Assembly (NCBI GenBank): GCA_964640295.1
Contig: CAZXFX010000005.1
Location: 21,497-85,496, forward strand
DNA from: an uncultured Dehalococcoidia bacterium
Lineage (GTDB): Bacteria; Chloroflexota; Dehalococcoidia; Lucifugimonadales; UBA1123
Direction: 5' to 3'
DNA: 64,000 nt
Position 1 is the first letter of the stretch. Each line of letters begins with the position of its first letter. Of the stretch, positions 13,374 through 64,000 are shown one piece after another. Made by a program: the position numbers and the translations under genes. The notes beneath the pieces are model-generated. The model did no database searches. It saw nothing but the letters and a program-made list of their open reading frames with translations, and was not told the DNA's origin.

Positions 13374-13483
13374 CTGTAACGATTTAGTCGGCGCTCCATC
13401 TCGCGCAAAAGTCCCTTCCACCTTGATGGGGGAAGGCTTTTATGGGGGTGATCCAATCCTCCGACCAAACTGATACAGGCTCC
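13374..13483. mobile_element. 110-nt structured intergenic repeat, copy 1 (MITE-like)
   Basis: About 91% identical (hand alignment, ~10 differences) to 28295-28404. Imperfect terminal inverted repeats ctgtaacgatttagtcgg / ccgaccaaactgatacag. Internal hairpin ccttcc...ggaagg. Flanked by a copy-specific direct repeat cgcgcYaagtcaatctg (13360-13376 and 13483-13499). Confidence 0.7.
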
Positions 13484-13681: not shown

Positions 13682-14935
13682 CTAGCTTTCAGGCCAGCCG
13701 TCGGGGATTTCGCCAGCGGCGAGAGCGTCGTCTATCGCCGACTTGGCGTCGTCCGAGACCCACCCGCCCCAGAGGTCTGGGCTGTTGTTCAGCCACCAGA
13801 GAGCGGCGTCCTCGCTGGTCGCGCCTTCATTTTCGGAAAGCCACGCGGCGACGGACTTATATACGCCGATATTGAAGTCCCACGCTCTTAGCATTTGGAC
13901 GACGTCCGGGGCATCGGTCATGACCTCGGGATGCACCGCTATGAGTATAGTCGCGTCTTCGTAGGCGCATGCCTTGGTCGTGAACCAGCACTCATCGCTG
14001 TACGCCGGCTCATCCAGGCGAACCAGGTCCAGAACGAGAGCGGGGTCGTTGGTTCCCCACTGGTATCCGAGCCATGGCTCCTGGTTCTGATACGCCCCAT
14101 ACAGGTCTGCGTTGGCGGCGGCGCCGTCTCCTGGGTTGACCACGTGAACGTGTTCGGCCAGTCCGTAACCTTCAATCTGGGCGGCGTTCACGGTTTCGCA
14201 CGCCCAACCGATTACGCACGAGACCAGTCTCGCCTTCCCTCCGGTTTCCGCCGTCTCGAACAGCATCTTGTATTGATCGTCTTTCAGATCGTCTATGCTG
14301 TCCAGATCAGGATACTGTTCCTGCAGATAGGCGGGAATTACGAATGCGGACTGCCAGTCCTTTCCGAGGCTCTCGCCGACTGAGATCACTTCACCCATGG
14401 ACTGCGCTTCCGCCCACGCTTCGTCCTGGTTGGGCAGCCAGATTTCCATGGTTACGTGAGAGTCGCCGCGCCGCAGTCCTTGGAACAGGGGCAGAGTGGC
14501 GCCGAACACGACATCCGTCGGATAGCCGTAGCCCTCTTCGACGATGTACTGCGCGATGCGGTTCTGCACCTGCGCGCTCGTCCAGTTGAGGTCGCTGAAC
14601 ACGATGGTCTCTTTCGGCCCTTCCGGCGCCATTACTTCCACGACCTTCTCGATGACGACGGTCTCGCCGGGAACTTCCACTTCCTTGACGACCTGCTTCT
14701 CGACGATGACGGTTTCGCCGGGAACTTCCACTTCTTTAATGACTTCTTTTTCGACTACTACTTCTTTAACGATCTCGACAGGCTTTTCGACTTCCTGGAT
14801 CACCACCACTTCTTTTTCGATGATCTCCGGCTCCGAGGAGCAGGCGACGACGGCTGCCATCGCCAAAATTAGCGCCCCGAATAAGAGCATTGATTTCTTT
14901 GCGCTGAATCTCAGCATATTTCTATTTCCTTTCAT
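13682..14935 (-). CDS. proX: Glycine betaine/proline betaine-type ABC substrate-binding lipoprotein (OpuAC/ProX-like) with repetitive linker
   Basis: Signal peptide plus Cys (LILAMAAVVAC), then EKEVV/VPGETV repeats, then an OpuAC-like body (FSDLNWTSAQVQNRIAQYIVEEGYGYP). An alternative start at ATG 14917 has the better RBS (AAGGAA). Confidence 0.85.
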   Translation of the reverse strand: MKGNRNMLRFSAKKSMLLFGALILAMAAVVACSSEPEIIEKEVVVIQEVEKPVEIVKEVVVEKEVIKEVEVPGETVIVEKQVVKEVEVPGETVVIEKVVEVMAPEGPKETIVFSDLNWTSAQVQNRIAQYIVEEGYGYPTDVVFGATLPLFQGLRRGDSHVTMEIWLPNQDEAWAEAQSMGEVISVGESLGKDWQSAFVIPAYLQEQYPDLDSIDDLKDDQYKMLFETAETGGKARLVSCVIGWACETVNAAQIEGYGLAEHVHVVNPGDGAAANADLYGAYQNQEPWLGYQWGTNDPALVLDLVRLDEPAYSDECWFTTKACAYEDATILIAVHPEVMTDAPDVVQMLRAWDFNIGVYKSVAAWLSENEGATSEDAALWWLNNSPDLWGGWVSDDAKSAIDDALAAGEIPDGWPES

Positions 14936-15005: not shown

Positions 15006-16073
15006 TTAGCCTGCGCTTCTGAGCGATTCCTGGCGACCCCGCGCGACCGACTGAGTCAGCCGGTCTATGACTATGGCCAGAACGACTATGGCCAGGCCCG
15101 CTATCGCGCCGTTGCCCGGCTGGTTCTTTTGCAGGGCGCGCAGCACGTTGTCGCCGAGTCCGCCGGCCGCCACCATGCTGGCAATCGTCACCATCGCAAG
15201 CGCCATCATCGTGGTCTGGTTGATTCCCGCCATGATAGTCGGCATCGCCATGGGTATCTGCACCTTGGTGAGAAGCTGATATGGCGTCGTCCCGAACGAG
15301 CGAGCCGCTTCCACCGCTTCCGCCGAGACCTGCCTGATGCCCAGATTGGTCAGGCGTATGACGGGCGGAACGGCGTAGATTATGGTGGCGAATATCCCCG
15401 CCGGCTTGCCGAGTCCAAAGAACAGTATGCCCGGCAGAAGATATACGAAACTGGGCATAGTCTGCATGGCGTCCAGTATCGGGCGCATCAGATTGTCCAC
15501 TATGCGGCTTCGAGCTCCGATGACGCCCAGGGGAAGTCCCACCGCGACAGAAATCGCTACTGCCACCACCATGAGGGCTATCGTGTCTATCGTGTTTTCC
15601 CAGAGGTCCATGAACCCGACGTACAGAAGCGCGGCGACGGTGAACGCGAGCAACTGCCATCGTCCGACCGCGAACGCGAGTAGCGCGAGCGCGACGATTA
15701 CGGCGGGCCAAGGCAGCCATTTGAGAATGTTCTCTATCCAGACCAGCGCGTGAGTGACTGCGGCGCTGAGACCGTCGAACAGCCAACTGCCCTTGCGGGT
15801 AACCCAGTTGACGGCGTCGTCAATCGAATCGCCGGTTACTTCCCGCACCGTCCTGTCCAGCGTGACCACATTGCCGCTGGAAGTCTGGATTTCCGATGTG
15901 GACACGGTTGTGGGGAAGTCCATATTCGGACCCCACAGCGCCAGGCTTGCCGCCAGAACGACGATAAAGGCTCCCGCGCCCAGAAACCAGAAGTGGCGCG
16001 GCGAGATATTCAATCGCAATATGGCCTCTGCCGGAGATTCCGCCTTCTGCCGCGATTCTTCCAATCTGGCCAT
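15006..16073 (-). CDS. proW: Betaine-type ABC permease (ProW/OpuAB-like)
   Basis: 355 aa, multi-TM, with the typical EAARSFGTTPYQLLTKVQIPMAMPTIMAGINQ motif. Confidence 0.9.
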   Translation of the reverse strand: MARLEESRQKAESPAEAILRLNISPRHFWFLGAGAFIVVLAASLALWGPNMDFPTTVSTSEIQTSSGNVVTLDRTVREVTGDSIDDAVNWVTRKGSWLFDGLSAAVTHALVWIENILKWLPWPAVIVALALLAFAVGRWQLLAFTVAALLYVGFMDLWENTIDTIALMVVAVAISVAVGLPLGVIGARSRIVDNLMRPILDAMQTMPSFVYLLPGILFFGLGKPAGIFATIIYAVPPVIRLTNLGIRQVSAEAVEAARSFGTTPYQLLTKVQIPMAMPTIMAGINQTTMMALAMVTIASMVAAGGLGDNVLRALQKNQPGNGAIAGLAIVVLAIVIDRLTQSVARGRQESLRSAG

Positions 16074-18049: not shown

Positions 18050-19057
18050 ATGCCTACGAATGTGCCTCCGCAGTATAGAGAAGCGGAGGATAGATTCAGA
18101 AACGCTTCCACCATACAGGCGAAGGTGGCGTCGCTTCAAGAGATGCTTGCCATAATGCCCAAGCATAAAGGCACCGATCATCTCAAGGCGCAGCTTAGAT
18201 CCAGGCTCTCCAAGCTCATGGCCGATCTGGAGCAGAGCTCCGCCAAAGGCAAGGGAAGCGGCAGAATCGAACCCTTCTCCATGCCCAAAGAGGGGGGCGG
18301 ACGCGCCACCCTGATTGGCCCTTCCAATGTCGGCAAATCTTTGCTGCTCAACAACTCGACAGGCGCGAAGAGCAGGGTAGGGGCTTACGAACTCAGCACC
18401 ATGGAGCCTGTCCCCGGAATGCTCATCTACGAAGATGTGCCGATTCAGCTTGTGGACACTCCGCCCATTTCCAACCCTTCGACCCAAGGGCGTCTGTACG
18501 GCCTTCTCAGAAACACGGACGTGTTCATCGTCGTTCTGGACCTGTCAATGGACGCGGAAGCGCAGGTCGAGGAGACGTTCTCGGCGCTGGAAGAGTGGGG
18601 ATTCCGCATGCTTCGGAAAGGGGAGAGTCCGTCGGGGGATAGCCACTGGCTGAACAAGCCGACCATCGTGGTAGGCAATAAGGCGGATATTCCGGGCGCG
18701 CTCGACCAGTACGTCGCCATCGAGGAGAAACTGGGCGAGCGCTATCCGGTCATCATGGCGAGCGCGGAGGAGGGCGTCGGCTTCGAGGAGATCGCGGTCG
18801 AGGCGTTCGAGGCGCTGAAGGTGATTCGCGTATATACGAAGTCGCCGCGCATTAAAGTGGAGGACTATGTGCCGACCGAGCCTCTCGTGCTTCCGGCGGG
18901 CGCGACCGTAATAGAGGCGGCGCGCGGCGTCCATAAAGAGATAGGGCAGGGGCTCAAGTACGCCATTCTCTGGGGAGAGTCCAGCAAGTTCGACGGCCAG
19001 CATGTTGGGCGGACGCACCAACTCAGCGACAAGGACATCATCGAACTGCACACGTGA
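18050..19057 (+). CDS. DRG/Rbg-like GTPase with C-terminal TGS domain
   Basis: N-terminal helical KHKGTDHLKAQLRSRLSKL region. G1 GPSNVGKS, G3 DTPP (not DTPG), G4 NKAD. C-terminal TGS-like VIRVYTKSP...LPAGATVIEAARGVHKEIGQGLKYAILWG. Start at ATG 18050 with a GGGGG RBS. Confidence 0.8.
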   Translation: MPTNVPPQYREAEDRFRNASTIQAKVASLQEMLAIMPKHKGTDHLKAQLRSRLSKLMADLEQSSAKGKGSGRIEPFSMPKEGGGRATLIGPSNVGKSLLLNNSTGAKSRVGAYELSTMEPVPGMLIYEDVPIQLVDTPPISNPSTQGRLYGLLRNTDVFIVVLDLSMDAEAQVEETFSALEEWGFRMLRKGESPSGDSHWLNKPTIVVGNKADIPGALDQYVAIEEKLGERYPVIMASAEEGVGFEEIAVEAFEALKVIRVYTKSPRIKVEDYVPTEPLVLPAGATVIEAARGVHKEIGQGLKYAILWGESSKFDGQHVGRTHQLSDKDIIELHT

Positions 19058-28272: not shown

Positions 28273-28294
28273 TACAGTTTCCACACTCACGAAC

Positions 28295-28404
28295 CTGTAA
28301 CGATTTAGTCGGTGGCCCACTTCGGGCAAAAGTCCCTTCCACCTTGATGGGGAAAGGCTAGGATGGGGGTGATCCAATCCTCCGACCAAACTGATACAGG
28401 CTCC
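28295..28404. mobile_element. 110-nt structured intergenic repeat, copy 2 (MITE-like)
   Basis: Same element as 13374-13483. Flanked by its own direct repeat tccacaYtcacg (28280-28291 and 28402-28413). Confidence 0.7.
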
Positions 28405-36662: not shown

Positions 36663-36905
36663 TTAGCGAACCGCTGGAGAAACCCTGAGTGGTGTACGTC
36701 CTGAGAACGGCTTATCTGGCTCTCGACCTCTCTCGGCGCACACGGCTAGATAGTCGTCTATGGAAAACCGAAACTCTTCCTGAAGCTGTTCGACAGACGT
36801 TCCCTCAAAGACTATTACGTCCTTGGTATGTACCACCTCGCCATGAAACACACCCGCGTCCGAATCGAAAGTCACTGAGGCCCAATAGCCCTTATATTCT
36901 ATCAT
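36663..36905 (-). CDS. hicB: HicB-family antitoxin, apparently lacking the C-terminal DNA-binding domain
   Basis: MIEYKGYWASVTFDSDAGVFHGEV...DDYLAVCAERGREPDKPFSG is the HicB N-domain. The ORF stops at ...RVSPAVR, where homologs continue into an RHH domain. Confidence 0.8.
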   Translation of the reverse strand: MIEYKGYWASVTFDSDAGVFHGEVVHTKDVIVFEGTSVEQLQEEFRFSIDDYLAVCAERGREPDKPFSGRTPLRVSPAVR

Positions 36906-37156
36906 GGTTCTATCCCCGTCTTTCGCAAGAATTTTCTCAGGGATTCTACTGCGCCTTTTCTGGTCTCTCTTTCAGGATGTGGTCTATGAAAGTGAGCTCC
37001 AACATCGTTCAATTCTATATACACCCTGGCTCCCGTCCTTTCTTCAATGTACGCTCCGCAGGCCAATAGCATTGATTCAATTTCGTCCCATCGAAGACCT
37101 GCTTGTGTGGGTCTCCGGAAGATCGCTTCCAATGTCCTGCGATGCTTTCTTCTCAT
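36902..37156 (-). CDS. hicA: HicA-family mRNA interferase toxin
   Basis: 84 aa with KHRRTLEAIFRRP...LRWDEIESMLLACGAYIEERTGARV...HFHRPHP. 4-nt overlap with hicB. Confidence 0.85.
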   Translation of the reverse strand: MRRKHRRTLEAIFRRPTQAGLRWDEIESMLLACGAYIEERTGARVYIELNDVGAHFHRPHPERETRKGAVESLRKFLRKTGIEP

Positions 37157-37220
37157 AAGTGGACTATATCATATAATTGCGTCACACTAAGAACTAAAAA
37201 CTAACGACTAAAAACTGAAC

Positions 37221-38216
37221 ATGACCAAATTCCTTACATTCGGAGAAACCCTCGTACAGCGCAACGCCGACTACATCGGTCCCTACGACCCGGACGGCCC
37301 CTACACCTGGCACGTCGCGGGCGCGGAGTCTAATGTCGCCCTCGACCTGCGAAGGCTGACGCCGGACATAGAGGCCATCTGGGTGAGCCGGCTCGGTCGG
37401 GACGAGGACGGCGACATGATACTCGGCCAATTGCGAGACAGGATAACCGTCCGCGCCGCCCAGTTCGACGATGAGCGAACTGGTATCCAGCTACTCAATC
37501 ATCTGGGCGGCGGCGAGGTTCTGCGCCGATACAGGCGAGCGGGAAGCGCGGCAAGCCGTCTGACCGCCGCCGAAGTCCTGCCCCATCTGGACGGCAGCGA
37601 CCTCGTTCATGTTACAGGCATAACGCCTGCGCTGAGCGACATCTGTCGCCGGACGGTCATGGATGTAATGCAAGCCGCCGCCGAACGCCGAATCCCCGTC
37701 AGCATGGATGTCAACTACCGCGACGCTCTCTGGACGCCGCTAGAAGCGAGGGCGGTCTGCGACGAGATGCGCCAATTCGCTACCTTGTTCAAGGTAGGCC
37801 ACGACGAGGCCGAAACCATTTGGGGGCGTGGTTATTCGGCGGAAGAATACGCGCAATACTTCTTCAGCGGCAATACGCGCCTCACGCTAATTACCACCGG
37901 CGATAGCGGCGCGGTCGCCTGCGATGGCGATCAGGTCGTTGCCCATCCCGGATTCACAGTAGAAATGGTGGACCCCGTTGGAGCGGGCGACGCATTCGTA
38001 GCCGGGTTCCTGGCAGGCATATTCCAGCGATGCGAGTTGCCTGCGCTTCTCGATATGGGCACGGACGCCCGCGCCGACATACTCTACCACGCTCTTGCGA
38101 TAGCCAACGCCTGCGGCGCGCTCGTCTGCACCCAACATGGCGACACCGAACCCATGCCGGATATGCGCCAGGCGGAGGAGTTCATCGCGCGCAATAGAAC
38201 GAAAGCGGATGACTAA
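37221..38216 (+). CDS. PfkB-family sugar kinase (2-dehydro-3-deoxygluconokinase-like)
   Basis: 331 aa with the C-terminal DPVGAGDAFVAGF motif and overall PfkB layout. The last 65+ nt are duplicated at 38951-39015. Confidence 0.88.
   Translation: MTKFLTFGETLVQRNADYIGPYDPDGPYTWHVAGAESNVALDLRRLTPDIEAIWVSRLGRDEDGDMILGQLRDRITVRAAQFDDERTGIQLLNHLGGGEVLRRYRRAGSAASRLTAAEVLPHLDGSDLVHVTGITPALSDICRRTVMDVMQAAAERRIPVSMDVNYRDALWTPLEARAVCDEMRQFATLFKVGHDEAETIWGRGYSAEEYAQYFFSGNTRLTLITTGDSGAVACDGDQVVAHPGFTVEMVDPVGAGDAFVAGFLAGIFQRCELPALLDMGTDARADILYHALAIANACGALVCTQHGDTEPMPDMRQAEEFIARNRTKADD
38127..38191. repeat. 65-nt direct repeat, copy A (inside the kinase 3' end)
   Basis: Identical at all 65 positions to 38951-39015: tgcacccaacatggcgacaccgaacccatgccggatatgcgccaggcggaggagttcatcgcgcg. 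Confidence 0.95.
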
Positions 38217-38288
38217 GGAAAATTATATTCCAAAATAAAATACCGTTCTACTCTCGGAAGCGGTACTTTAGGTTGCACTTTCAGCATA

Positions 38289-38564
38289 CTAATTGCTGAG
38301 TGCGAAGAATTCCTCTACTTGTCTTTCGGGAACGTTTTCCGAGCGCATAGCGATCAATGCTTGGCACGCTGTCTCTATTCCACGTTCCAAATCGTATGTC
38401 CAAATCCCTACGTCGTCGGCGTTGCTTCTAACAATAAAAAATCTGCGCCGTCCAGATTGGTCAATCGTTATTGAAACAAAGTCGCTACCATCCCTGACCA
38501 ATATATTGCCCTCTTTGGTTTGCTCAACGGTGAACTGTTCTCCTGAGTACTCATATGTCCGCAT
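38289..38564 (-). CDS. Hypothetical small protein (cassette ORF B)
   Basis: 91 aa, ATG preceded by AAGGAAGGAGAA. No recognisable motif. More AT-rich than its surroundings. Confidence 0.55.
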   Translation of the reverse strand: MRTYEYSGEQFTVEQTKEGNILVRDGSDFVSITIDQSGRRRFFIVRSNADDVGIWTYDLERGIETACQALIAMRSENVPERQVEEFFALSN

Positions 38565-38799
38565 TGTTTTCTCCTTCCTTCTGCCGTCTTGGGAATATCG
38601 TGTTAGAAATCAGGGTTATTGGAAATTGGACACGCTGTCCGCTAGCATCGCGAAACCAGTATTGCATTGTGGGCATAAATCCGTCTTCGACACCTACAAT
38701 TAGTTCAGTGACCGAGTCGGAAACAATTTGAGGGTTACGACCTGTCAATTCCATGACCAACTCTTCAGGACGATTCCATGCATTCAGGATTTCTTCCAA
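38551..38799 (-). CDS. Hypothetical small protein (cassette ORF A)
   Basis: 82 aa from TTG 38799 (AAGAGG upstream), or shorter from ATG 38754. Its 3' end contains the RBS and start of ORF B (14-nt overlap). No recognisable motif. Confidence 0.4.
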   Translation of the reverse strand: MEEILNAWNRPEELVMELTGRNPQIVSDSVTELIVGVEDGFMPTMQYWFRDASGQRVQFPITLISNTIFPRRQKEGENNADI

Positions 38800-38950
38800 T
38801 GTGCCCTTAGCCTCTTTTCTTCCCTAGCTGCGCGGTTGCTGATACCGCCATTGGCCCTTTGGGCGGGCAGTCGAAGTTCAGAATCATTCTCGTTACATTC
38901 TACAAACTATCCATACAGTCTAGTCAGCCCTTGGCTAATTGGTCAACCAT

Positions 38951-39034
38951 TGCACCCAACATGGCGACACCGAACCCATGCCGGATATGCGCCAGGCGGA
39001 GGAGTTCATCGCGCGTTCACAGAACCGCAGTTGA
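38951..39034 (+). pseudogene. Orphan 3' end of the PfkB kinase gene (65-nt repeat copy B plus its own tail and stop)
   Basis: Reads (C)TQHGDTEPMPDMRQAEEFIARSQNRS-stop in the kinase frame. Sits 30 nt from the convergent glnS stop, as expected for the ancestral gene end. Confidence 0.8.
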
Positions 39035-51539: not shown

Positions 51540-53639
51540 CTATCTGCCAACGGGCACGATATCCTCAGGGTTGTTCCAAGTAGAGAACAACGCGGGATCC
51601 ATAGGCCACTCCGAGATTTTCTTCGGGTTGTATGCGATGGGAGACGGAACTCCAACCACGCCGAAGCTGACAGCGTGATCGAACAAGTACTGCGCCAAGG
51701 CGTTGTTCATCTCGATTTGCTTCGCCGGGTCAGGCTCGCCCGCGACTGCCAGCCAGGTGTCCGCCGCTTGCTTTATCTCCAGACCGCAACCGAAGCCGCC
51801 GCGCGTCAGCGAAGTGTGGTCCTGGGACTTCGGCCATTCCCAAGGCCATGTGCTCTTGCCGTCGTCGCAAGCGGTTATCCACGGCAATGTCGTAGCGCGA
51901 GCCACGATTGTGGGGCGATACACCGAGTATGCATACTTCTGAACTGCGGTTACTGCGCCAATCTCGTCCCAGAATCCTGAAACTGCGTCAGCAATATCTA
52001 CGAAGGCGCCATTGCTGTCGGTGTACAGAGGTATATCGAATCGCTTGCCATTCCTCTCAGGGTATCCAGCCTGGTCAAGAAGACGGCCAGCCTCGTCCGG
52101 ATCGTATGGATACTCCCATGCAGAGTTCCAGTTCGGGTTGTTTGGATTGAACTGGTTGAGGTAGATTGGCTGACCCAATCCGTTCAGAATCACTTCATTG
52201 ATCAAGTCGCGGTCAATCGCTCTCGCCAGAGCGTTTCGAACCAGGACGCCTTCCTCAAAGTCGGAACATCCATCCGGGCACTTTCCGCCATCATCTGGGC
52301 TGGGATTTCCAATCCATGGCAGGTCTCTCATATAGACTGCGGCGGTATCCAGCGAGTCGCCGGTTACTACGTGGTTGCTTTCCCACAGGTTGCCAGAGAA
52401 TACGACAGAGGCATGATTCGCAAGCCCTGTGTCAGCAGTCTTGAAACCACCTTCCAACATGCGCGGCAAATGCCTGAGCTGAATCGGAGCGGCGTCAATT
52501 TCGCCCGTCTCCATCAGCGCGATCTGCGTGTTCTGCTCACCCACTTCTCTGAAGACTATCCTGTCCACCTTCGAGTTGGCGTTCCAGTGGTCATAAGGGA
52601 CGGCTTCCAGGATCGCGGTATCATCCTGAACCCATTCCAGTATGTGCAGCGGGCCGGTGCCAATGAAGTTGGTGTCCTGCATCTCGGTCTTGCCGACTTC
52701 CTCAAAGCGGTGCAGGCTCTGTACGCTGAACGCCTGCGCCGCGTCGTTCATCAGGTTCGCATTCCAGCGCGGGTCGTATAGCGGATCGCCATTCTGCGTC
52801 GTGTTGAACGTAAGGCTTACCGTTGTGTCATCAACGGCGAGAGCCTCGTTGCTGCCGAACATCGCCGCGAAATCCCCCGCCTGCCAGTGAATGCTGTTCG
52901 GGTTGACTGCGTTGTTGCCGTCGTTGATGGTGAACGCGATGTCGTGCGCCGTCATCGGCCCCCAGCTTCCGCCTTCGTGGCTGCGGTCGCCAAGACCCTC
53001 GCCGTGGAATATCACGTCGTCGCGAATCGTGAGCGTCGCGCCTTCAGGCTGACCCGCGTCGTTGAATCTTAGCTCCCAGGCGCTTGCCAACATGGGAGCG
53101 ACAACACCGGGCGCCACGAACTTCATCGTGACTTCACCAACGCCCCAGTAGTGCATGGAGTCCGTCAACTGAGTGGACCCTAGTCCAACTCCGGGAGGAA
53201 CATCTGTGATGGCGATATTGATGGTGCCTGCGTCACCCCTTGGATCCGGCGCCGGCACTGCCGACACTATTTCCACGACAGGAGTCGGTGTAACGACGAG
53301 CTCGACCTCTTTGACGACCTCAACCTCGACAACCTTCTCAACCTCGACCTCTCTCACGACTTCCTTCTCGACCACGACGGTCTCGCCAGGAACGTTGACC
53401 TCTCTCACGACTTCCTTCTCGACCACCACGGTCTCGCCAGGAACCGTGACCTCTTTCACGACTTCCTTCTCGACCACCACGGTCTCGCCAGGAACCTCGA
53501 CTTCTTTAATCACTTCCTGCGTTACAATCTTCTCTACTTCGATTATCTCCGGGTCGCTCTGACACGCAACCGCGAACGCCAATGCGAACACAGCTATGAT
53601 CGGTATCAGTATCCCCGCCTTTCTCAGTCTTCCAAACAT
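51540..53639 (-). CDS. ABC substrate-binding lipoprotein, family 5, with repetitive linker
   Basis: 699 aa with signal plus Cys (FALAFAVAC), then three tandem 16-aa units VPGETVVVEKEVV(K/R)EV, then a large SBP_bac_5-type body. Confidence 0.88.
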   Translation of the reverse strand: MFGRLRKAGILIPIIAVFALAFAVACQSDPEIIEVEKIVTQEVIKEVEVPGETVVVEKEVVKEVTVPGETVVVEKEVVREVNVPGETVVVEKEVVREVEVEKVVEVEVVKEVELVVTPTPVVEIVSAVPAPDPRGDAGTINIAITDVPPGVGLGSTQLTDSMHYWGVGEVTMKFVAPGVVAPMLASAWELRFNDAGQPEGATLTIRDDVIFHGEGLGDRSHEGGSWGPMTAHDIAFTINDGNNAVNPNSIHWQAGDFAAMFGSNEALAVDDTTVSLTFNTTQNGDPLYDPRWNANLMNDAAQAFSVQSLHRFEEVGKTEMQDTNFIGTGPLHILEWVQDDTAILEAVPYDHWNANSKVDRIVFREVGEQNTQIALMETGEIDAAPIQLRHLPRMLEGGFKTADTGLANHASVVFSGNLWESNHVVTGDSLDTAAVYMRDLPWIGNPSPDDGGKCPDGCSDFEEGVLVRNALARAIDRDLINEVILNGLGQPIYLNQFNPNNPNWNSAWEYPYDPDEAGRLLDQAGYPERNGKRFDIPLYTDSNGAFVDIADAVSGFWDEIGAVTAVQKYAYSVYRPTIVARATTLPWITACDDGKSTWPWEWPKSQDHTSLTRGGFGCGLEIKQAADTWLAVAGEPDPAKQIEMNNALAQYLFDHAVSFGVVGVPSPIAYNPKKISEWPMDPALFSTWNNPEDIVPVGR

Positions 53640-58916: not shown

Positions 58917-59960
58917 ATGGAACGCCCCATTATGAAACCGATAGGAACGCCCGTCCAGGAACTCGACACGCCCGCGCTCGTCGTTGACCTGGACATACTC
59001 GAAACCAACATCGCCGACTGCCACGCTCACTTCCAGCTCTCAGATACCAAGATCCGCCCCCACATCCAGGCGCACCTCTCGCCCGCCATAGCCCACATGC
59101 AGATCCACGCCCAGGGAACGATGGGCGGCATAGCCGTCTCCACGCTTGGCCAGGCCGAGATATTCGCCCAGCGCGGCTTCCACGACATTCTCATCACCAA
59201 CCTCGCCGTCACTGCCCCCAAGATAGCCCGGGTCGCCGCGCTCTCAAAGAGAACAAACCTCACAGTCTGCGCCGACGACCCCGGAAGCGCTCTCCTCCTT
59301 GCCCATGACGTCGCGCTGGCCCTCTCTACCGTATCCGTCATGGTCGTCGCGCGCGACCAGGACGAATCAATCGGCGTAACCCCGCAGAACGTCGCCGACA
59401 CGGTCTCCATGATAAAAAGCGCGGTCCCCCTCAGATTCGCCGGATTCATCTCTTCCAGCGCCAGCGTTCTGCTGGAGGCGGCTTCCAACTACCCGAACGA
59501 CGAAATCGAAACCGTTCTCGCGCTGCCTGAAGGCGAGGGAATGCCCGACTCCACGTCCGGAATAACCCAGATAGTTACCGGCTCATACGCGCTCATGGAC
59601 GCCGCCAACCAGTCCGCGCTGCCCGATATGCGGCCCGCCGCCAACATACTCGCCACCGTAATGACACACCAGGAAGAAGGACTCGTCTGGCTCGACGCCG
59701 GCCAGAAAGCCACCAGCATAGACACCGGCCTCCCCCTCGTGGACGGCATCCCGGGCGCCTCCGTCAGCCGCATGAGCGCCGAACACGGCGGCATGGTCCT
59801 CGACGAGGGCGCGACTTGGGACGTGGACATCGGTACCAAAGTGCGGCTCATTCCTCACAACATCGCCAACACCGTCAACGTTTACGACTTCATACACGCC
59901 GTCCGCGACGGCAAACTGGAAGCCGTCTGGGAAGTCGCCGCCCGAGGTCGCTACGACTAG
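58917..59960 (+). CDS. D-Ser dehydratase / D-Thr aldolase-like (alanine-racemase-fold) protein lacking the PLP lysine
   Basis: LDTPALVVDLDILETNI... then IRPHIQAHLSPAIA, where family members have RPHxKxHK. Both lysines are replaced (Q, L). Confidence 0.8.
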   Translation: MERPIMKPIGTPVQELDTPALVVDLDILETNIADCHAHFQLSDTKIRPHIQAHLSPAIAHMQIHAQGTMGGIAVSTLGQAEIFAQRGFHDILITNLAVTAPKIARVAALSKRTNLTVCADDPGSALLLAHDVALALSTVSVMVVARDQDESIGVTPQNVADTVSMIKSAVPLRFAGFISSSASVLLEAASNYPNDEIETVLALPEGEGMPDSTSGITQIVTGSYALMDAANQSALPDMRPAANILATVMTHQEEGLVWLDAGQKATSIDTGLPLVDGIPGASVSRMSAEHGGMVLDEGATWDVDIGTKVRLIPHNIANTVNVYDFIHAVRDGKLEAVWEVAARGRYD

Positions 59961-60013: not shown

Positions 60014-61114
60014 ATGACCGCCCCCAATCCAGCCATCGGAACCCCCATTTCCCAGCTCGACACCCCCGCGCTGCTCGTCGAACTCGACGCGCTCGAAAGC
60101 AACTTCGCCCACGTAGCCGCGCTCTACTCCGACTCCGTCTGCAAAATGCGCGAACACGCCAAGAACATCAAGACGCCCGCCATACTGCACAAGCAGATAG
60201 AGGCCGGCGGCACCGTCGGCGGAGTGTGCGCCGCCAAAGTGGCCGAAGCCGAAGTCATGGTCGAAGGCGGCATCAAGGACATCCTCATCACCAGCCAGGT
60301 CGTCACCCCCGACAAGATAGCGCGCGTCTGCTCGCTCTCCCGCGAGGCCGACACCAAAGTCGCCATAGACGACGAACGCAACCTACGCCTCATCTCCTCC
60401 ATATCCCAGACCGCCGACACCCAGGTTGGCGTCGTCATCGAAGTCAACACCTCCATGGACCGCGCCGGCATACGCCGAACCGAGCAGGGCATCAGCCTCG
60501 CCCGACTCGCCACCGAACTGCCCGGCGTAGATTTCCGAGGCGTGATGAGCCACCAGTCCATAAGCGGAGACCCCGACCGCGAAACCCGCTTCGCCGAGGG
60601 CCGACGCTGGATGCAGATGTGCGTTGACGTCGCCAACGCCATCCAGGACGCCGGCATCCCCGTCGAAATAGTCTCCACCGGCGAAACCTTCACCATAGAC
60701 GTAGCGCCCGAAATGCCCGAGGTAACCGAAGTGCAGGGCGGCACCTACGCCCTCATGAACACCACCAGCGCCTACATGGAAGACTTCCAGTTCGCCGCCA
60801 AGATACTCGCCACCGTCATCAGCCGCCCTTCCGACAACATCGCCATAGGCGACGTCGGCTACCGCGCGCTCGCAGCCCCCAACGGAGTCCTTCCCTCAGT
60901 CGAGGGCCACGACGACATCCGGGTGGACTCCCTCGCGCCCGACCACATCGTCCTCAAATCCCAAGGCCCCATGCCCCTCGACGTGCGCGACCAGTTCCTG
61001 CTCCTCAGCGCCCAGCAAGACATCCTCGTCAACCGCTGGGACCGCTTCATAGCCGTCCGAAACGCCCAAGTCGAAGCCGTCTGGCCCATACTGGCAAGAG
61101 GCTGCCACCACTGA
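60014..61114 (+). CDS. D-Ser dehydratase / D-Thr aldolase-like PLP enzyme
   Basis: LDTPALLVELDALESNF... then MREHAKNIKTPAIL (lysines retained). Start at ATG 60014 (AGAGGTGA RBS). The ORF-track start 59816 overlaps the previous gene. Confidence 0.85.
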   Translation: MTAPNPAIGTPISQLDTPALLVELDALESNFAHVAALYSDSVCKMREHAKNIKTPAILHKQIEAGGTVGGVCAAKVAEAEVMVEGGIKDILITSQVVTPDKIARVCSLSREADTKVAIDDERNLRLISSISQTADTQVGVVIEVNTSMDRAGIRRTEQGISLARLATELPGVDFRGVMSHQSISGDPDRETRFAEGRRWMQMCVDVANAIQDAGIPVEIVSTGETFTIDVAPEMPEVTEVQGGTYALMNTTSAYMEDFQFAAKILATVISRPSDNIAIGDVGYRALAAPNGVLPSVEGHDDIRVDSLAPDHIVLKSQGPMPLDVRDQFLLLSAQQDILVNRWDRFIAVRNAQVEAVWPILARGCHH

Positions 61115-61116
61115 CT
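61056..61116. repeat. Direct repeat copy 1 (3' end of the 60014-61114 gene including its stop)
   Basis: 60 of 61 positions identical to 62030-62090. Continues for 9 more nt (acgatagcc) at 61254-61262 after the inserted 129-nt element. Confidence 0.9.
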
Positions 61117-61245
61117 CAGGGACTTTCGATTATCTGAGATCCGTTCGTCCTGAGTTTGTCGAAGGACGCCTGCTGAATGGCGCCTGTTGAATGGCGCTGT
61201 CAGTCAGTTCGTAGGCATATTGTAGAATAACCGAAAGACCCTGAT
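61117..61245. mobile_element. 129-nt MITE-like insertion
   Basis: Terminal inverted repeats CAGGGACTTTCGATTAT (61117-) versus the reverse complement of ataaccgaaagaccctg (-61243), 15/17 matching. Flanked by 8-nt direct repeat cactgact (61109-61116 and 61246-61253). Interior has cgtcc..ggacg and a tandem tgaatggcgc x2. Confidence 0.65.
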
Positions 61246-61316
61246 CACTGACTACGATAGCCCATGCTAAAATATCCAGATAAAACTACCCAACAAAACC
61301 GATAGAGAGTCGCGCA

Positions 61317-61562
61317 ATGGTCAGCGTCACCATAAACGATCTGGACGAATCCTTAGAACAACGCCTTCGCATGAGGGCGGCGCAGAAAGGCGTCTCCGTC
61401 GAGCAAGAAGCGAGGAACATCCTGGCCGCCGCCCTGCGCGACCAACCCCCGCCCCATGCAGACCTCGCAAGCTCTATCCGCTCCAAATTCGCCCCCTTCG
61501 GCGGCGTCGAACTGGAGTTGCCCGCTCGAGACGCTATTCGTCCCACGCCTCACTTTGACTGA
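61317..61562 (+). CDS. vapB: RHH-type antitoxin (VapB/FitA-like)
   Basis: MVSVTINDLDESLEQRLRMRAAQKGVSVEQEARNILAAAL is a ribbon-helix-helix N-terminus. Immediately upstream of a PIN gene. Confidence 0.8.
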   Translation: MVSVTINDLDESLEQRLRMRAAQKGVSVEQEARNILAAALRDQPPPHADLASSIRSKFAPFGGVELELPARDAIRPTPHFD

Positions 61563-61572
61563 GACGCAAGAT

Positions 61573-62013
61573 ATGATAATACTTGACACGAACGTCGTCT
61601 CCGAACTGATGCTTCCCATTTCTGATCAGAACGTGGTTGAATGGGTTATCAGCCAAGACCCCATGACTCTCTATCTTTCAGTCATAACTGAGGCTGAATT
61701 GCGTTATGGCATTGAGATAATGCCTCCAGGACAACGACGCGAGGGACTCCACGCTGCAATGGAAGCCATGTTTCAAGAAGACTTTGCTGGACGCATTTTG
61801 CCTTTCGATAGGGCGTCCGCTCACTCCTATGCTGCGATTGCCGCGTCTCGACGATCATCAGGGCGTCCTATCAGCCACTCAGATTGTCAAATAGCCGCGA
61901 TTGCGAGTACGCACGACGCCTCAGTCGCTACCAGAGACGTAGCAGGCTTTGAAGGCTGCGAAGTCAATATCATCAACCCATGGACTGACGCAATGAAATT
62001 TCCCGAAACATAA
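61573..62013 (+). CDS. vapC: PIN-domain toxin (VapC/FitB-like)
   Basis: MIILDTNVVSEL..., SVITEAEL, and DCQIAAIA...ATRD acidic residues. The ORF-track start 61456 overlaps vapB. Confidence 0.88.
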   Translation: MIILDTNVVSELMLPISDQNVVEWVISQDPMTLYLSVITEAELRYGIEIMPPGQRREGLHAAMEAMFQEDFAGRILPFDRASAHSYAAIAASRRSSGRPISHSDCQIAAIASTHDASVATRDVAGFEGCEVNIINPWTDAMKFPET

Positions 62014-62029
62014 GTTCGCTTCACGGCAA

Positions 62030-62099
62030 TCCGAAACTCCCAAGTCGAAGCCGTCTGGCCCATACTGGCAAGAGGCTGCCACCACTGACTACGATAGCC
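62030..62099. repeat. Direct repeat copy 2 (uninterrupted 70-nt version)
   Basis: tccgaaactcccaagtcgaagccgtctggcccatactggcaagaggctgccaccactgactacgatagcc. Matches 61056-61116 plus 61254-61262. Confidence 0.9.
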
Positions 62100-62252: not shown

Positions 62253-64000
62253 ATGGTATCCCAAGGTTCAGACAATATATACAGGACCATAATAGTCGGC
62301 GCGGGAAGCTCAGCCGCCAACTTCATTCCAGAGTTCTGTCGCTCTGAGTCCGAAAACGTCCGAGTCACATTCATAGACCACGATTTGGATCAAATAGATG
62401 ACCTCCGCAGGCAATTGTCAAGTGTCCTCGATGAGGACTCCCTTAATACAGTACATGTCAATAAGCCTGAAACTGCCAGGGCCAATTTCAGGTCCAAGGT
62501 TCAGGAACTTGGATTCTCATACGAAAGGATAAACTGGGATAGAGAGGTCGCCCCGGATACACCTCCTGTCATACGGATTTTGACCCACATACAGTGGGAT
62601 GAGATTAAGAGAGCTATTGACGATCATATCCAGAAAAATCTGGATGACACCCCTACTGCCGAAAATAGAATAGTCTACGTCTTTGGCGTAACAGGCATGA
62701 CCTCCAGCACCGTAGCCATGGAAGCTTCGAAATTGTACAGAAAGCGCCTGAAAGACTGGGCCAGAGAGCGCGCCTCCACCAGTAGCCAGGAAATCAGACA
62801 AATCGGACTTGCGCTTATGTCTCCCACTCCGACTCTTGGGATTAGCGCGTATAATATCGAGCAAGGCTACAAAATTTGCACGATGCTCTCTGAAACAGTC
62901 CCGGACGAATACGCAAGTCTAAAGCAAAGAGAAGCCTTCCCTTTCGACAATTTGTTCCTCATAGATGGAAGCGGATTCGGTGGTGAAGACCGGCAGGATC
63001 AGCGAGAATTCAGTAAATGGTCTGCCGAAACTCTTTCCATGTTGTTATATCCCAAAGGACAGGACAGACATGGAAGTATAGATACCAACGAAATATTGGG
63101 CGAGCTGAGAGGCTACCGTAGTATAGCTCTTGGTCGGGCAGGCTGGAACCCAGAAGAGATAATTGAGGTTCAAGACCAGGTAGTTCTTAACTCATTGGTT
63201 GAAATCGGTCTTGATTCAGGCCTTGCATCAGAAGATGTAAAAAGAGTTCTGAGACAGCTTAAGAGCGGCGATGAAGATGTTCGAAAACAACTAGAAGGAA
63301 TGATTGTTGCCCTTGATGATGAAGAGGACGCTAAAGGGGAGCTCGAAAAGTTCAATTCACGATGGTACCGTAGAGTGGGTGGGGGAAGGCTGGAGCGGGA
63401 GAATAGACTCAAAGAGGCTGTAGCTAATGCGGATAGCGTATTTGAAGGTTTGGAGAATATGGTGGAGGCTCGCGCTGATAAACTAGACAAGAAATTTAGA
63501 GGTCGCAGACTCAAGTTCCTGTGGAGTACCCCATCGCTCAGAGAGACCATTAGATTGGTGGAAAATAGAGGGCCTGGGAGTGTATTGACTAACTTTGAAT
63601 CTCTGGAGTCATCTGATCAGCAGCGTTTCAGAACGGATCGCGACAGTATGCTTATGCGTATGATAGATCCATCTACTGAACATGATACAAGAACGAAAAG
63701 CATTAAATCATGGGAAATGGGACCGTCTGATGGCAGACAGATGCTTGGATTCCCCACAGAAGATTTGCAGTATGAAATGATGGACAATAGAGATGACCCA
63801 GTAGAAGTAGCCGAATATGAACTGAGCGGGGATATGCTCTATTCATTGATGTTCTGGATTCCTGCGGATGGAAAGATTATGCCCAGATACTACCGTAACC
63901 AATCCAATCCTGAACGCAATCGCTTGCCTGAAGATAAAGACGCTTGGCCCGAATCTGTAGATTCAACCAGCGATGACGTAGATAAGATGCTGAGGCATGG
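62253..64000 (+). CDS. Large hypothetical protein, 3'-truncated by the window (at least 582 aa); possible degenerate tubulin/FtsZ-like N-domain
   Basis: Hand-translated codon by codon with no stop from ATG 62253 (AGGAGG RBS 7 nt upstream) to the window end. Absent from the ORF track, presumably because it has no stop. AT-rich. Motifs TIIVGAGSSAANF (aa 12-24), VTFIDHDLD, VYVFGVTGMTSSTV (aa 141-154) and FLIDGSGFGG (aa 235-244). Confidence 0.75.
   Translation, partial: MVSQGSDNIYRTIIVGAGSSAANFIPEFCRSESENVRVTFIDHDLDQIDDLRRQLSSVLDEDSLNTVHVNKPETARANFRSKVQELGFSYERINWDREVAPDTPPVIRILTHIQWDEIKRAIDDHIQKNLDDTPTAENRIVYVFGVTGMTSSTVAMEASKLYRKRLKDWARERASTSSQEIRQIGLALMSPTPTLGISAYNIEQGYKICTMLSETVPDEYASLKQREAFPFDNLFLIDGSGFGGEDRQDQREFSKWSAETLSMLLYPKGQDRHGSIDTNEILGELRGYRSIALGRAGWNPEEIIEVQDQVVLNSLVEIGLDSGLASEDVKRVLRQLKSGDEDVRKQLEGMIVALDDEEDAKGELEKFNSRWYRRVGGGRLERENRLKEAVANADSVFEGLENMVEARADKLDKKFRGRRLKFLWSTPSLRETIRLVENRGPGSVLTNFESLESSDQQRFRTDRDSMLMRMIDPSTEHDTRTKSIKSWEMGPSDGRQMLGFPTEDLQYEMMDNRDDPVEVAEYELSGDMLYSLMFWIPADGKIMPRYYRNQSNPERNRLPEDKDAWPESVDSTSDDVDKMLRH

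What the first reader, a model, noticed from the sequence alone, without database searches (positions are those of the whole stretch)
61056..62099. VapBC cassette bracketed by a ~70-nt duplication of the upstream gene's 3' end: same design as the kinase-associated cassette
Seen: the last 59 nt of the 60014-61114 gene including its stop, plus 11 nt downstream, recur at 62030-62099 with one mismatch. Between the copies lie only the 129-nt MITE and a vapB-vapC pair. After subtracting the MITE and its duplication, the repeat spacing is 837 nt, close to the 824 nt of the cassette at 38127-39015. Neither cassette has a recombinase. Beyond the second copy starts a long AT-rich ORF. Inference: the 3' end of this gene is an attachment site that has been used at least once, and possibly serially (tandem islets). 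Recombinase-less two-gene mini-cassettes that duplicate gene 3' ends may be a recurrent mobile unit in this genome.
Basis: partly seen in the sequence, partly recalled or inferred. Interest (0 to 1): 0.65.

Follow-up and report, generated by a model that had tools for sequence, protein, structure and literature searches.

The report
Toxin-antitoxin cassette with gene-end scar
A toxin-antitoxin gene pair lies just after a metabolic gene and is followed by a leftover second copy of that gene's last 70-80 bases; related genomes show this spot is a long-standing hotspot where foreign genes pile up, more likely by ordinary recombination than by a new kind of mobile cassette.

Summary
The last 72 nt of the DSD1-family gene (60014-61114) plus 11 nt downstream recur at 62017-62099. 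The 70-nt core has one mismatch. Between the copies lie a true MITE and an intact FitAB/VapBC pair.

Comparison with about 40 orthologous loci from uncultured marine Dehalococcoidia changes the interpretation. The vapBC operon sits at this same junction in six lineages at 75-83% nt identity, so it is old and tied to this locus. Genomes without it exist, and some have an almost empty site.

The site is the edge of a hypervariable islet hotspot between this gene and argC. It carries TA, restriction-modification, vWA/PP2C/kinase and IS cargo. Other genomes carry one or two extra stubs of the gene's 3' end. The stubs start at different positions (-80, -72, -57, -56, -39, -13). Three are fused to fragments of the native downstream sequence. 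None shares an element-side motif.

I found no tyrosine or serine recombinase at this site or at the kinase site.

The best reading is scars of homology-anchored plus illegitimate recombination, with stubs reused as homology patches. A fixed attachment site or a discrete recombinase-less mobile cassette is less likely. The kinase cassette behaves the same way. Interest is moderate to low.

The parts
60014..61114 (+). Conserved flanking gene 'c0': a DSD1-family PLP enzyme (D-serine dehydratase-like / 3-hydroxy-D-aspartate aldolase-like), 366 aa and intact.
   Evidence: Pfam PF01168 + PF14031. NCBIfam BhcC-like, below the family cutoff. Full-length 366-aa orthologues occur in 30+ Dehalococcoidia genomes.
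61043..61116 (+). Left copy of the repeat: the functional 3' end of c0 including the stop codon. It continues at 61254-61262 on the far side of the MITE.
61117..61245 (.). A 129-nt MITE inserted on the c0 stop codon. The 8-bp target duplication CACTGACT lies at 61109-61116 and 61246-61253. The 17-nt imperfect terminal inverted repeats read CAGGGACTTTCGATTAT / CAGGGTCTTTCGGTTAT.
   Evidence: z-score -2.76. It is absent from the same position in L029, L010 and L036. The same TIR family occurs in L001, L002, L007 and L036.
61254..61316 (+). vapB leader ('J'): 11 nt (CTACGATAGCC, of which ACGATAGCC lies at 61254-61262), then the conserved CATGCTAAAAT (an extended -10-like motif) at 61263-61273.
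   Evidence: This junction sequence is homologous in W, L029, L010, L036, L044 and L045. The promoter assignment is an inference; the consensus scan did not call it.
61317..61562 (+). vapB / fitA-like ribbon-helix-helix antitoxin, 81 aa.
   Evidence: PF22513, E 3.5e-14. An identical protein is encoded on Logan contig L001.
61573..62013 (+). vapC / fitB-like PIN-domain toxin, 146 aa. The four acidic PIN residues are present (D5, E42, D104, D122 by alignment to FitB).
   Evidence: PF01850, E 2.2e-12. FitB 2H1O/2BSQ, E 1.3e-28, with alignment. 7163 homologues at E<=1e-20.
62017..62099 (+). Right copy: a non-functional stub of the c0 3' end (72 nt including the stop at 62086-62088) plus 11 nt of the vapB leader. 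It starts 3 nt after the vapC stop.
62253..64000 (+). AT-rich ORF ('c17', 582+ aa, runs off the window). It is the next layer of cargo and its function is unknown.
   Evidence: No Pfam, NCBIfam, PADLOC or PDB hit. 30-34% identical relatives (about 650 aa in the full-length copies) sit at the same hotspot in L005 and L008; a 653-aa gene in the corresponding position of L044 was not compared directly. GC is 0.46-0.49.
37221..38216 (+). PfkB-family sugar kinase. Its last 25 nt (tail NRTKADD*) are supplied by the inserted cassette.
   Evidence: PF00294. Sequence. C-terminal tails of orthologues are hypervariable.
38127..38191 (+). Left copy of the 65-nt kinase repeat.
38289..38799 (-). Two overlapping small ORFs (91 aa at 38289-38564; 82 aa at 38551-38799). 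This is the kinase-associated cassette, of unknown function.
   Evidence: No Pfam, NCBIfam, PADLOC or credible PDB hits. The same pair occurs at the same locus in L043.
38951..39034 (+). Right copy of the 65-nt kinase repeat plus the displaced original kinase tail (SQNRS*).
   Evidence: L040's single kinase end aligns to both copies.

Best explanation
The locus holds an intact FitAB/VapBC-type toxin-antitoxin operon. It has long resided immediately downstream of a DSD1-family PLP-enzyme gene. This is the left edge of a hypervariable islet hotspot, lying between that gene and argC, in a clade of uncultured marine Dehalococcoidia.

The second copy of the gene's end is a dead stub. I infer it was left when DNA from a related genome was spliced in by homologous recombination on one side and a non-homologous, microhomology-level join on the other. 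That could have been homology-facilitated illegitimate recombination, or equivalently a circularised fragment integrating by a single crossover. Only short stubs (13-90 nt) persist, because longer ones would either support clean replacement or delete the cargo by recombination between the copies.

Stubs then act as homology patches for later exchanges, so cargo accretes in layers, each marked by a stub. In this window the stub's left 22 nt are old and diverged. Its right 61 nt, plus 11 nt of the vapB leader, are identical to the present gene end. I infer a later recombination or gene conversion inside the stub, probably the event that placed the AT-rich cargo next to it. A MITE then landed on the gene's stop codon.

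Shown: the anatomy, the TA identity, the conservation of the vapBC junction in six lineages, the before/after pairs, the variable stub boundaries with fused native-gene fragments, and the absence of recombinase genes in the ORFs scanned.

Inferred: the recombination mechanism, the order of events, and that no trans-acting recombinase is involved.
For: (1) TA identity and integrity.

(2) Same junction in six lineages. The arrangement c0 stop - leader - CATGCTAAAAT - vapB is homologous in W, L029, L010, L036, L044 and L045. vapBC is 75-83% identical at the nt level, against 81-87% for c0. In L010, L044 and L045 only vapB or a piece of it is left, followed by other cargo.

(3) Hotspot. Upstream synteny and downstream argC-side synteny are conserved. 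The interval between c0 and argC ranges from about 145 nt (L011-L013, L016) to 7 kb, and in several genomes argC is not reached within the 10 kb fetched. It carries Uma2, methyltransferase, vWA/PP2C/kinase, type I R-M, IS1/IS5/IS66, DUF5678 + Asp-protease and c17 cargo.

(4) Before/after pairs. L004 versus L029 (vapBC + 82-nt stub). L005 versus L008 (a 7.4-kb island + stub). L004-like versus L002 (two stubs). L040/L041 versus the window for the kinase site.

(5) Stub boundaries differ: -72 (W), about -80 (L029), -57 and -56 (L002), -39 (L008), -13 (L036). There is no shared element-side sequence. In L002 and L008 the stub is fused to a 5' fragment of the native neighbour gene (methyltransferase c9) at two different junctions, one at the microhomology TCCG. 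The third L002 stub is fused to an internal piece of the L004-type downstream region.

(6) In L002, L029 and L008 the functional gene end and the stub belong to different synonymous allele classes (GCAAGAGG/GCCAGAGG against GCCCGCGG). One of the two therefore came from another lineage.

(7) No tyrosine or serine recombinase was found among 30 islet ORFs scanned in Pfam, in the window cassettes, or in the precomputed Pfam lists of L036 and L038-L046.

(8) The kinase cassette is also locus-bound. L043 carries it (79% nt) with the same right end but no duplication. L042 has different cargo at the same spot.
Against: The last 61 nt of c0 are abruptly more divergent between genomes (74-89%) than the 40 nt just upstream (mostly 90-100%; 82-85% against L045). 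The W and L029 stubs begin inside that conserved block. This is also the pattern expected if a site-specific recombinase crossed over at a conserved core and each element supplied its own gene end.

The two L002 stubs start within 1-2 nt of each other, which could hint at a preferred breakpoint.

The microhomologies at the junctions are short (2-5 nt) and were not tested against chance.

Which side carried the homologous anchor cannot be decided.

The 24 kb of the source contig outside the window was not available, so an integrase or a third copy to the right cannot be excluded.

Natural competence, or any other DNA-uptake route, was not examined in these organisms.
Confidence: 0.55

Rival explanations
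1. This would be site-specific integration by a recombinase encoded elsewhere. The cassettes would be non-autonomous elements (CIME-like or satellite-like). Their attP would carry the gene's 3' end, the repeats would be attL and attR, and arrays would arise by tandem accretion.
For: Direct repeats restore the target gene's 3' end. Copies occur in tandem in L002. Nucleotide conservation changes abruptly about 61 nt from the gene end, next to a highly conserved 40-nt block. The W and L029 stubs start inside that block. The two L002 stubs start at nearly the same base.
Against: No integrase was found in any islet at either site across about 45 loci. Stub left ends range from -80 to -13 and share no element-side arm. 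Three stubs are fused to fragments of native chromosomal sequence, not to a dedicated att arm. The cassette is old and locus-bound, and its relatives at other loci lack repeats. L043 carries the kinase cassette without attR.
Confidence: 0.2
2. The cassette would spread on its own as a selfish circle. Recombination between the two repeats would excise a vapBC circle carrying one hybrid copy of the gene end. That circle would re-integrate into the same gene of related cells by a RecA-dependent single crossover, stabilised by TA addiction.
For: The mosaic right copy in the window (22 diverged nt, then 72 nt identical to the gene end plus leader) is what an excise-and-reintegrate cycle would give. 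The cassette is present, absent or truncated in a patchy way among close relatives.
Against: Re-integration explains the 11 leader nucleotides in the right copy only if the recipient already had them. Stubs in L036 (13 nt) and the absent stubs in L010, L044 and L045 are too short or missing for such cycling. vapBC divergence of 75-83% between lineages fits vertical descent. No circular form has been observed.
Confidence: 0.12
3. The rearrangement would be purely local, with no incoming DNA. A small tandem duplication spanning the gene end would be followed by divergence or gene conversion, and vapBC would simply sit inside it.
For: In the window both copies belong to the same allele class and are nearly identical. 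Junctions of the type 'downstream fragment | gene 3' end' are formally tandem-duplication junctions.
Against: In L002, L029 and L008 the two copies belong to different synonymous allele classes. The cargo between copies differs between genomes and is absent in the 'before' relatives. A tandem duplication would duplicate the cargo, and that is not seen.
Confidence: 0.08
4. The duplication would be an assembly artefact.
For: None specific. L001, a short-read Logan contig, has different sequence to the left of the MITE. This shows that repeats here can mislead short-read assemblers.
Against: The same architecture occurs in independent genomes, including the chromosome-level L029. The copies differ at 5 positions. 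Flanking sequence is unique on both sides.
Confidence: 0.02

Closest known systems
FitAB / VapBC type II toxin-antitoxin systems (Neisseria gonorrhoeae FitAB, PDB 2H1O/2BSQ)
   Same: An RHH antitoxin gene lies 10 nt upstream of a PIN-domain toxin gene. The toxin aligns with FitB over residues 1-137 (E 1.3e-28), and the four acidic PIN residues are conserved.
   Different: Sequence similarity is all that has been shown. No activity, target RNA or autoregulation was tested. NCBIfam VapC models match only below their cutoffs.
HGT hotspots / flexible genomic islets between conserved core genes, turned over by homologous recombination in the flanks (own knowledge: Oliveira, Touchon & Rocha 2017; Rodriguez-Valera 'flexible genomic islands')
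   Same: Conserved flanks (the DSD1-family gene and argC) enclose highly variable content rich in TA, R-M and other defence-like genes. Most variants carry no integrase.
   Different: Here successive acquisitions leave visible stubs of the flanking gene's 3' end, giving a layered record. To my knowledge such stubs are not a described hallmark of integrase-free hotspots.
Homology-facilitated illegitimate recombination in natural transformation (own knowledge: de Vries & Wackernagel 2002, Acinetobacter; Prudhomme et al. 2002, S. pneumoniae)
   Same: There is one homologous anchor and one junction at a few bases of microhomology, with foreign DNA retained between them. Junctions such as c9-5'|TCCG|c0-3' fit this.
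   Different: This is inferred from scars in uncultured organisms. Competence is unknown. The join falls inside or upstream of the anchor gene's end, so it duplicates 13-90 nt instead of deleting recipient DNA.
Integrase-mediated islands that duplicate a gene's 3' end, including tandem arrays and integrase-less derivatives (own knowledge: Dehalococcoides ssrA genomic islands, McMurdie et al. 2011; Dichelobacter nodosus vap regions at tRNA genes; CIMEs of Streptococcus ICEs)
   Same: Direct repeats are derived from the target gene's 3' end. The gene is restored by incoming sequence. Repeats occur in tandem in L002. The cargo includes vapBC-type genes, and the taxonomic class is the same as for the ssrA islands.
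   Different: No integrase was found at either site in about 45 loci. Repeat boundaries vary. Stubs are fused to native gene fragments. The cassette is not seen moving to other att-like sites.
MITEs (non-autonomous TIR transposon derivatives)
   Same: It is 129 nt long with 17-nt imperfect TIRs and an 8-bp target duplication, and it has no ORF. It is absent from orthologous positions. Further copies with the same TIRs but different interiors occur in related genomes.
   Different: The parent transposase family was not identified. Only one copy lies in this 64-kb window.

Membership tests
Type II TA, VapBC/FitAB | Toxin with a PIN domain and four conserved acidic residues. | tested here: met
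   PF01850, E 2.2e-12. The FitB alignment shows D5, E42, D104 and D122 conserved.
Type II TA, VapBC/FitAB | A small DNA-binding antitoxin gene immediately upstream in the same operon. | tested here: met
   PF22513 FitA-like RHH, 81 aa. Its stop at 61562 is 10 nt before the vapC start at 61573.
Type II TA, VapBC/FitAB | The toxin is toxic and is neutralised by the antitoxin. | not testable with these tools
   This needs expression experiments.
Integrative element / CIME with att sites | Direct repeats at both ends, derived from the target (the gene's 3' end). | tested here: met
Integrative element / CIME with att sites | A cognate tyrosine or serine recombinase in the element, an adjacent element or a related array. 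| tested here: not met
   None was found in the window cassettes or in 30 islet ORFs from the related loci. None appears in the precomputed Pfam lists of L036 and L038-L046. The region to the right of the window and the rest of each genome were not examined.
Integrative element / CIME with att sites | The same crossover and boundary in independent insertions, with a conserved att arm on the element side. | tested here: not met
   Stub starts are at -80, -72, -57, -56, -39 and -13, with no common flanking sequence. Caveat: there is an abrupt conservation switch at about -61.
Integrative element / CIME with att sites | Excision to a circle and an empty site in the same population. | not testable with these tools
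   No reads are available. No conspecific genome was found: the best c0 match is 92% aa, and exact-pattern metagenome scans were empty.
Integron gene cassette | An attC recombination site at the cassette end and an IntI integrase with attI nearby. | not tested
   No attC model was run. The repeats are copies of coding sequence of the flanking gene, which is not the integron design.
MITE | Terminal inverted repeats, a target-site duplication, small size and no coding capacity. | tested here: met
   17-nt TIRs (15/17), an 8-bp TSD, 129 nt.
MITE | Multiple copies, and presence/absence polymorphism at orthologous sites. | tested here: met
   It is absent at the same position in L029, L010 and L036. 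The same TIRs occur in L001, L002, L007 and L036.
HGT hotspot with HFIR-type scars | Conserved flanking genes with variable intervening content among relatives. | tested here: met
   c0 site; kinase site
HGT hotspot with HFIR-type scars | Illegitimate junctions at short microhomology joined to a homologous anchor. | tested here: inconclusive
   TCCG at the L008 junction, and 2-5 nt at the L002 junctions. No chance expectation was computed, and donor sequences are unknown for W and L029.
HGT hotspot with HFIR-type scars | A DNA-uptake or transfer route in these organisms (competence genes, GTA, vesicles). | not tested
   The genomes were not screened.

The most novel reading that the evidence does not exclude
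In this Dehalococcoidia clade, the 3' ends of particular conserved genes (the DSD1-family gene, the PfkB kinase and possibly many more) would be programmed entry points. A dedicated mechanism, either an unrecognised trans-acting recombinase or a systematic homology-plus-microhomology pathway, would add small TA or defence cassettes while rebuilding the gene end. It would leave a stratified series of stubs that records the order of acquisitions.
Probability: 0.15. Interest if true: 0.65.

Novelty: new member of a known kind. Interest (0 to 1): 0.35.

Why it matters
The TA pair itself is ordinary. What is useful is that this locus, read together with about 40 related loci, gives natural before/after snapshots of how an integrase-free gene-transfer hotspot grows. 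Each acquisition pushes a short stub of the flanking gene's end downstream, so the stubs act as layer markers.

If a genome-wide survey of the many complete Dehalococcoidia MAGs confirmed this, it would document homology-anchored illegitimate recombination operating in uncultured marine bacteria (possibly host-associated). It would also give a simple sequence signature, short 3'-end stubs 0.5-10 kb downstream of intact genes, for finding such hotspots and ordering their acquisitions.

The result also warns against reading every gene-end duplication as an attachment site of a mobile element.

Tried and rejected
1. Extending the window to the right. Exact-protein look-ups of c0 and VapC found nothing, and VapB found only a 1-kb Logan contig. 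The cluster look-up shows that the source contig is 88,228 nt, but it could not be retrieved. Exact-pattern scans of JGI metagenomes for the MITE end and for the right junction returned zero hits.

2. Finding a conspecific empty site. The closest c0 proteins are only 88-92% identical. Empty and alternative states therefore come from other species.

3. L001 as evidence that the cassette sits at another locus: rejected. Similarity to the window starts exactly at the first MITE base. The differences lie only in the first half of the MITE, and the rest is 100% identical. It is most simply a short-read path switching between two MITE copies, or a MITE-mediated rearrangement.

4. A transposon bounded by two MITE ends around vapBC: rejected. 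The window has no further TIR copy.

5. Assigning functions to the two kinase-cassette ORFs and to the AT-rich ORF. Pfam, NCBIfam, PADLOC and PDB sequence searches gave nothing credible. The designed WD-repeat hits have no significant stretch.

6. A motif shared between the kinase 65-mer and the c0 70-mer. Only a weak CCCAT-N-C-N-GG resemblance was seen by eye, and I judged it chance.

7. The idea that the allele class of the gene end travels with vapBC: rejected. L010 and L036 carry vapB or vapBC with the other allele class.

8. Literature searches for HFIR with duplication, and for TA systems in sponge Dehalococcoidia, returned nothing directly relevant.

9. The consensus promoter and terminator scan around the cassette gave no more hits than shuffled sequence.
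Full report
**1. The observation**

The repeat is real. The repeat finder reports 61043-61116 matching 62017-62090 (74 nt, 93%) and 61246-61262 matching 62083-62099 (17/17). The two blocks are separated on the left side by a 129-nt element (61117-61245). That element has 17-nt imperfect terminal inverted repeats (CAGGGACTTTCGATTAT / CAGGGTCTTTCGGTTAT) and an 8-bp target duplication CACTGACT that includes the TGA stop of the upstream gene.

With the element and one target copy removed, the copies align over 83 nt. The first 22 nt carry five mismatches and the remaining 61 nt are identical.

In the whole window only this pair and the kinase pair (38127-38191 / 38951-39015, 65/65) have this design. 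The diverged left part of the right copy still encodes RFTAIRNSQ, against RFIAVRNAQ in the gene. It is therefore a fragment of coding sequence, not a chance match.

**2. The parts**

- The upstream gene (60014-61114, 'c0') is a 366-aa DSD1-family PLP enzyme (PF01168 + PF14031). A paralogue lies just upstream (58917-59960).
- The cassette is a FitA-like RHH antitoxin (61317-61562) and a PIN toxin (61573-62013). The toxin matches FitB of Neisseria over residues 1-137 at E 1.3e-28, and D5, E42, D104 and D122 are conserved. The pair looks intact.
- The ORF after the second copy (62253 to the window end) has no match in Pfam, NCBIfam, PADLOC or the PDB. It lies in 46-49% GC DNA, against 63-65% for the flanking gene region.

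**3. The organism and the locus in relatives**

A scan of GTDB species representatives with c0 returned 34 distinct loci (L002-L035). Of these, 29 (L002-L029 and L031) are syntenic orthologous loci in Dehalococcoidia / SAR202-type MAGs, many at chromosome level. The best protein identity is 92%. L030 is a short partial contig and L032-L035 are only 28-33% identical.

Upstream synteny is conserved everywhere. Downstream, the conserved neighbour is an argC-like gene followed by a fixed gene series.

The interval between c0 and argC is extremely variable:
- In L011, L012, L013 and L016, argC follows after about 145 nt.
- Elsewhere there are one to three Uma2 genes, a methyltransferase (c9), a vWA/PP2C/kinase set, type I R-M M and S subunits, IS1/IS5/IS66 transposases, a DUF5678 + aspartyl-protease pair, an HTH_GRAD + HSP70-like pair, or relatives of the AT-rich ORF.

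This is a classic hypervariable hotspot loaded with TA and defence-type genes.

**4. vapBC is old and tied to this locus**

The junction 'c0 stop - about 11 nt - CATGCTAAAAT - vapB' is homologous in six lineages:
- the window;
- L029 (complete vapBC);
- L036 (a TARA scaffold, complete vapBC);
- L010, L044 and L045 (vapB or a piece of it, followed by different cargo).

Nucleotide identity of vapB or vapBC to the window is 75-83%, against 81-87% for c0.

L004 and L046 have the L029-type downstream island but no vapBC. The nearest VapC relatives elsewhere (about 74% and 70% aa; 69-71% nt) sit in unrelated contexts in L038 and L039, with no flanking repeats.

The cassette is therefore not hopping between sites. 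It is a long-standing resident of this junction, and it has been lost, truncated or overlaid repeatedly.

**5. Stubs of the gene end are common at this site, and their boundaries vary**

Extra copies of the c0 3' end occur in L029 (82 nt, 85% identity, spacing 846), L002 (two extra copies), L008 (one, 7.5 kb downstream) and L036 (only the last 13 nt, used by vapC as its own C-terminus and stop).

Their left ends lie at about -80, -72 (window), -57, -56, -39 and -13 nt. The sequences to their left have nothing in common.

In L002 and L008 the stub is fused to the first 44 or 57 nt of the methyltransferase gene c9. That gene is the native neighbour of c0 in L006, L019, L021, L023 and L036. The two junctions differ, and the L008 junction lies at the shared tetranucleotide TCCG. 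The third L002 stub is fused to an internal piece of the L004-type downstream region.

In L002, L029 and L008 the functional gene end and the stub belong to different synonymous allele classes (Ala-Arg-Gly as GCAAGAGG/GCCAGAGG against GCCCGCGG). The two copies therefore come from different lineages.

Clear before/after pairs exist:
- L004 to L029;
- L005 to L008 (L008's stub and everything after it are collinear with L005's gene end and downstream genes at 78%);
- L004-like to L002.

**6. No recombinase**

Thirty islet ORFs from twelve loci were scanned against Pfam, along with the window cassettes. The precomputed Pfam annotation of ten further loci (L036, L038-L046) was also read. None shows a tyrosine or serine recombinase. 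Only IS transposases appear in some islets.

**7. The kinase cassette behaves the same way**

L040 and L041 have the PfkB kinase followed after 57 nt by glnS, which is the empty site. L040's single kinase end aligns with both window copies.

L043 carries the same 91-aa + 82-aa pair (79% nt) at the same place with the same right end (...TCAAC[C/T]AT), but with no duplicate. L042 carries different cargo.

Kinase C-terminal tails are hypervariable across orthologues. This shows that downstream DNA has been exchanged at the very end of this gene many times.

The 837 versus 824 nt similarity is incidental.

**8. The most likely mechanism**

The data fit recombination between related genomes that is homologous on one side (in c0 or in the downstream core genes) and illegitimate on the other. 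The illegitimate join falls within the last 13-90 nt of c0, or joins a donor fragment that begins there. A circularised fragment integrating by one crossover gives the same product.

Short stubs survive for a reason. Longer terminal homology would give clean replacement, or would delete the cargo by recombination between the copies.

Stubs can then serve as homology patches. In the window, the right 61 nt of the stub plus 11 nt that belong to the vapB leader are identical to the present gene end, while the left 22 nt are old. The simplest account is a later exchange or conversion inside the stub, plausibly the event that brought the AT-rich cargo. The MITE came last, because the right copy spans its insertion point uninterrupted.

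These steps are inferences. The anatomy and the comparative pattern are shown.

**9. What speaks for the rival att-site model**

The last 61 nt of c0 are sharply more diverged between genomes (74-89%) than the preceding 40 nt (mostly 90-100%). The W and L029 stubs begin inside that conserved block, and the two L002 stubs begin within 1-2 nt of each other.

A site-specific recombinase acting in trans therefore cannot be excluded. I give it 0.2. It would, however, need eroded stubs in L002, L008 and L036, fusion to native gene fragments by further events, and a recombinase that was never seen near these sites.

**10. The MITE and L001**

The MITE call is supported. It is absent at the same position in L029, L010 and L036. 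Elements with the same TIRs but other interiors occur in L002 (abutting its third stub), L007 and L036.

L001 is a 1-kb short-read contig. It is identical to the window from the middle of the MITE through vapB and vapC, but different to the left of the MITE. It is best read as a path through another MITE copy, not as a second location of the cassette.

**11. Verdict**

- The gene end is a recurrent, serially used entry point with no recombinase in sight, and empty sites exist.
- The evidence does not support a discrete mobile mini-cassette or a fixed attachment site.
- The feature is a member of a known kind: a TA module in an integrase-free HGT hotspot.
- It has an instructive extra, layered stubs of the flanking gene end. 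Interest is 0.35.

Noticed in passing
window 61117-61245; L001 400-514; L002 about 15300-15412; L007 from 8482; L036 from 11083: A MITE family with conserved TIRs CAGGG[AT]CTTTCG[AG]TTAT and variable interiors (some share the hairpin GTTCGTCCTGAG..GTCGAAGGA) occurs across these Dehalococcoidia genomes. In L002 one copy abuts and truncates the third stub of the gene end. The parent transposase is unknown.
   Followed up: partly
window 13371-13483 and 28292-28404: A second, unrelated 113-nt intergenic repeat family (90% identical copies, about 15 kb apart).
   Followed up: no
window 60014-61114 (c0), last 61 nt against nt 1001-1040: Between genomes, the last 61 nt of the gene are only 74-89% identical, although the encoded peptide is conserved. 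The 40 nt just upstream are mostly 90-100% identical. Two synonymous allele classes (GCAAGAGG against GCCCGCGG) are distributed patchily. This suggests repeated replacement of the gene end.
   Followed up: partly
window 38192-38216 and 39016-39034; kinase orthologues P0122-P0199: The C-terminal tail of the PfkB kinase after '...EFI' differs in length and sequence in almost every orthologue (2 to about 20 residues). This indicates many independent exchanges of downstream DNA at the extreme 3' end of this gene.
   Followed up: partly
window 62253-64000; L005 3551-5512 and 2634-3536; L008 19411-21093; L044 9381-12253: The AT-rich ORF belongs to a family of roughly 650-aa proteins. The N-terminus has a GxGxxG-like motif, and the L005 copy has hydrophobic segments in its middle region. 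In L005 and L044 it is paired with a roughly 300-aa protein. There is no Pfam, PADLOC, NCBIfam or PDB match. It recurs as cargo at this same hotspot in either orientation.
   Followed up: partly
window 37186-37222; L036 6440-6473; L008 about 18540-18562; L002 about 14630-14656: An AACTAA-rich leader (for example TAAGAACTAAAAACTAACGACTAAAAACTGA) precedes the start codons of the kinase gene and of the c9 methyltransferase genes. It may be a lineage-typical 5' leader or translation signal.
   Followed up: no
L045 9154-13079; L007 14093-14838: There are other small modules at the same hotspot. In L045 a vapB remnant is followed by an HTH_GRAD protein and an HSP70-like protein. L007 has a DUF5678 + retropepsin-like aspartyl protease pair. 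Both look like defence or TA-type cargo.
   Followed up: no
L025 11097-11261 and 14680-14845: A 166-nt direct repeat (86% identity) beginning exactly at the c0 stop codon flanks four genes (thioredoxin-reductase-like, SDR, methyltransferase, NUDIX). This is another bracketed segment at the same site, here duplicating intergenic sequence rather than coding sequence.
   Followed up: no
L036 6400-6441: In the TARA scaffold, vapC reads through into the last 13 nt of the displaced c0 end, so the toxin ends with the c0 residues Cys-His-His and uses the old c0 stop codon.
   Followed up: yes
window 14644-14812, 53312-53531 and 13019-13144: Coding tandem repeats with periods of 51 nt and 12/18 nt are shared between two distant genes on the minus strand. 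They are likely repetitive acidic or low-complexity protein segments.
   Followed up: no
window about 36800-37150 (minus strand); L040-L042 4334-4684: A HicB-family antitoxin gene lies directly upstream of the kinase in relatives, and apparently in the window too. The kinase is therefore flanked by small TA-type genes on both sides.
   Followed up: no
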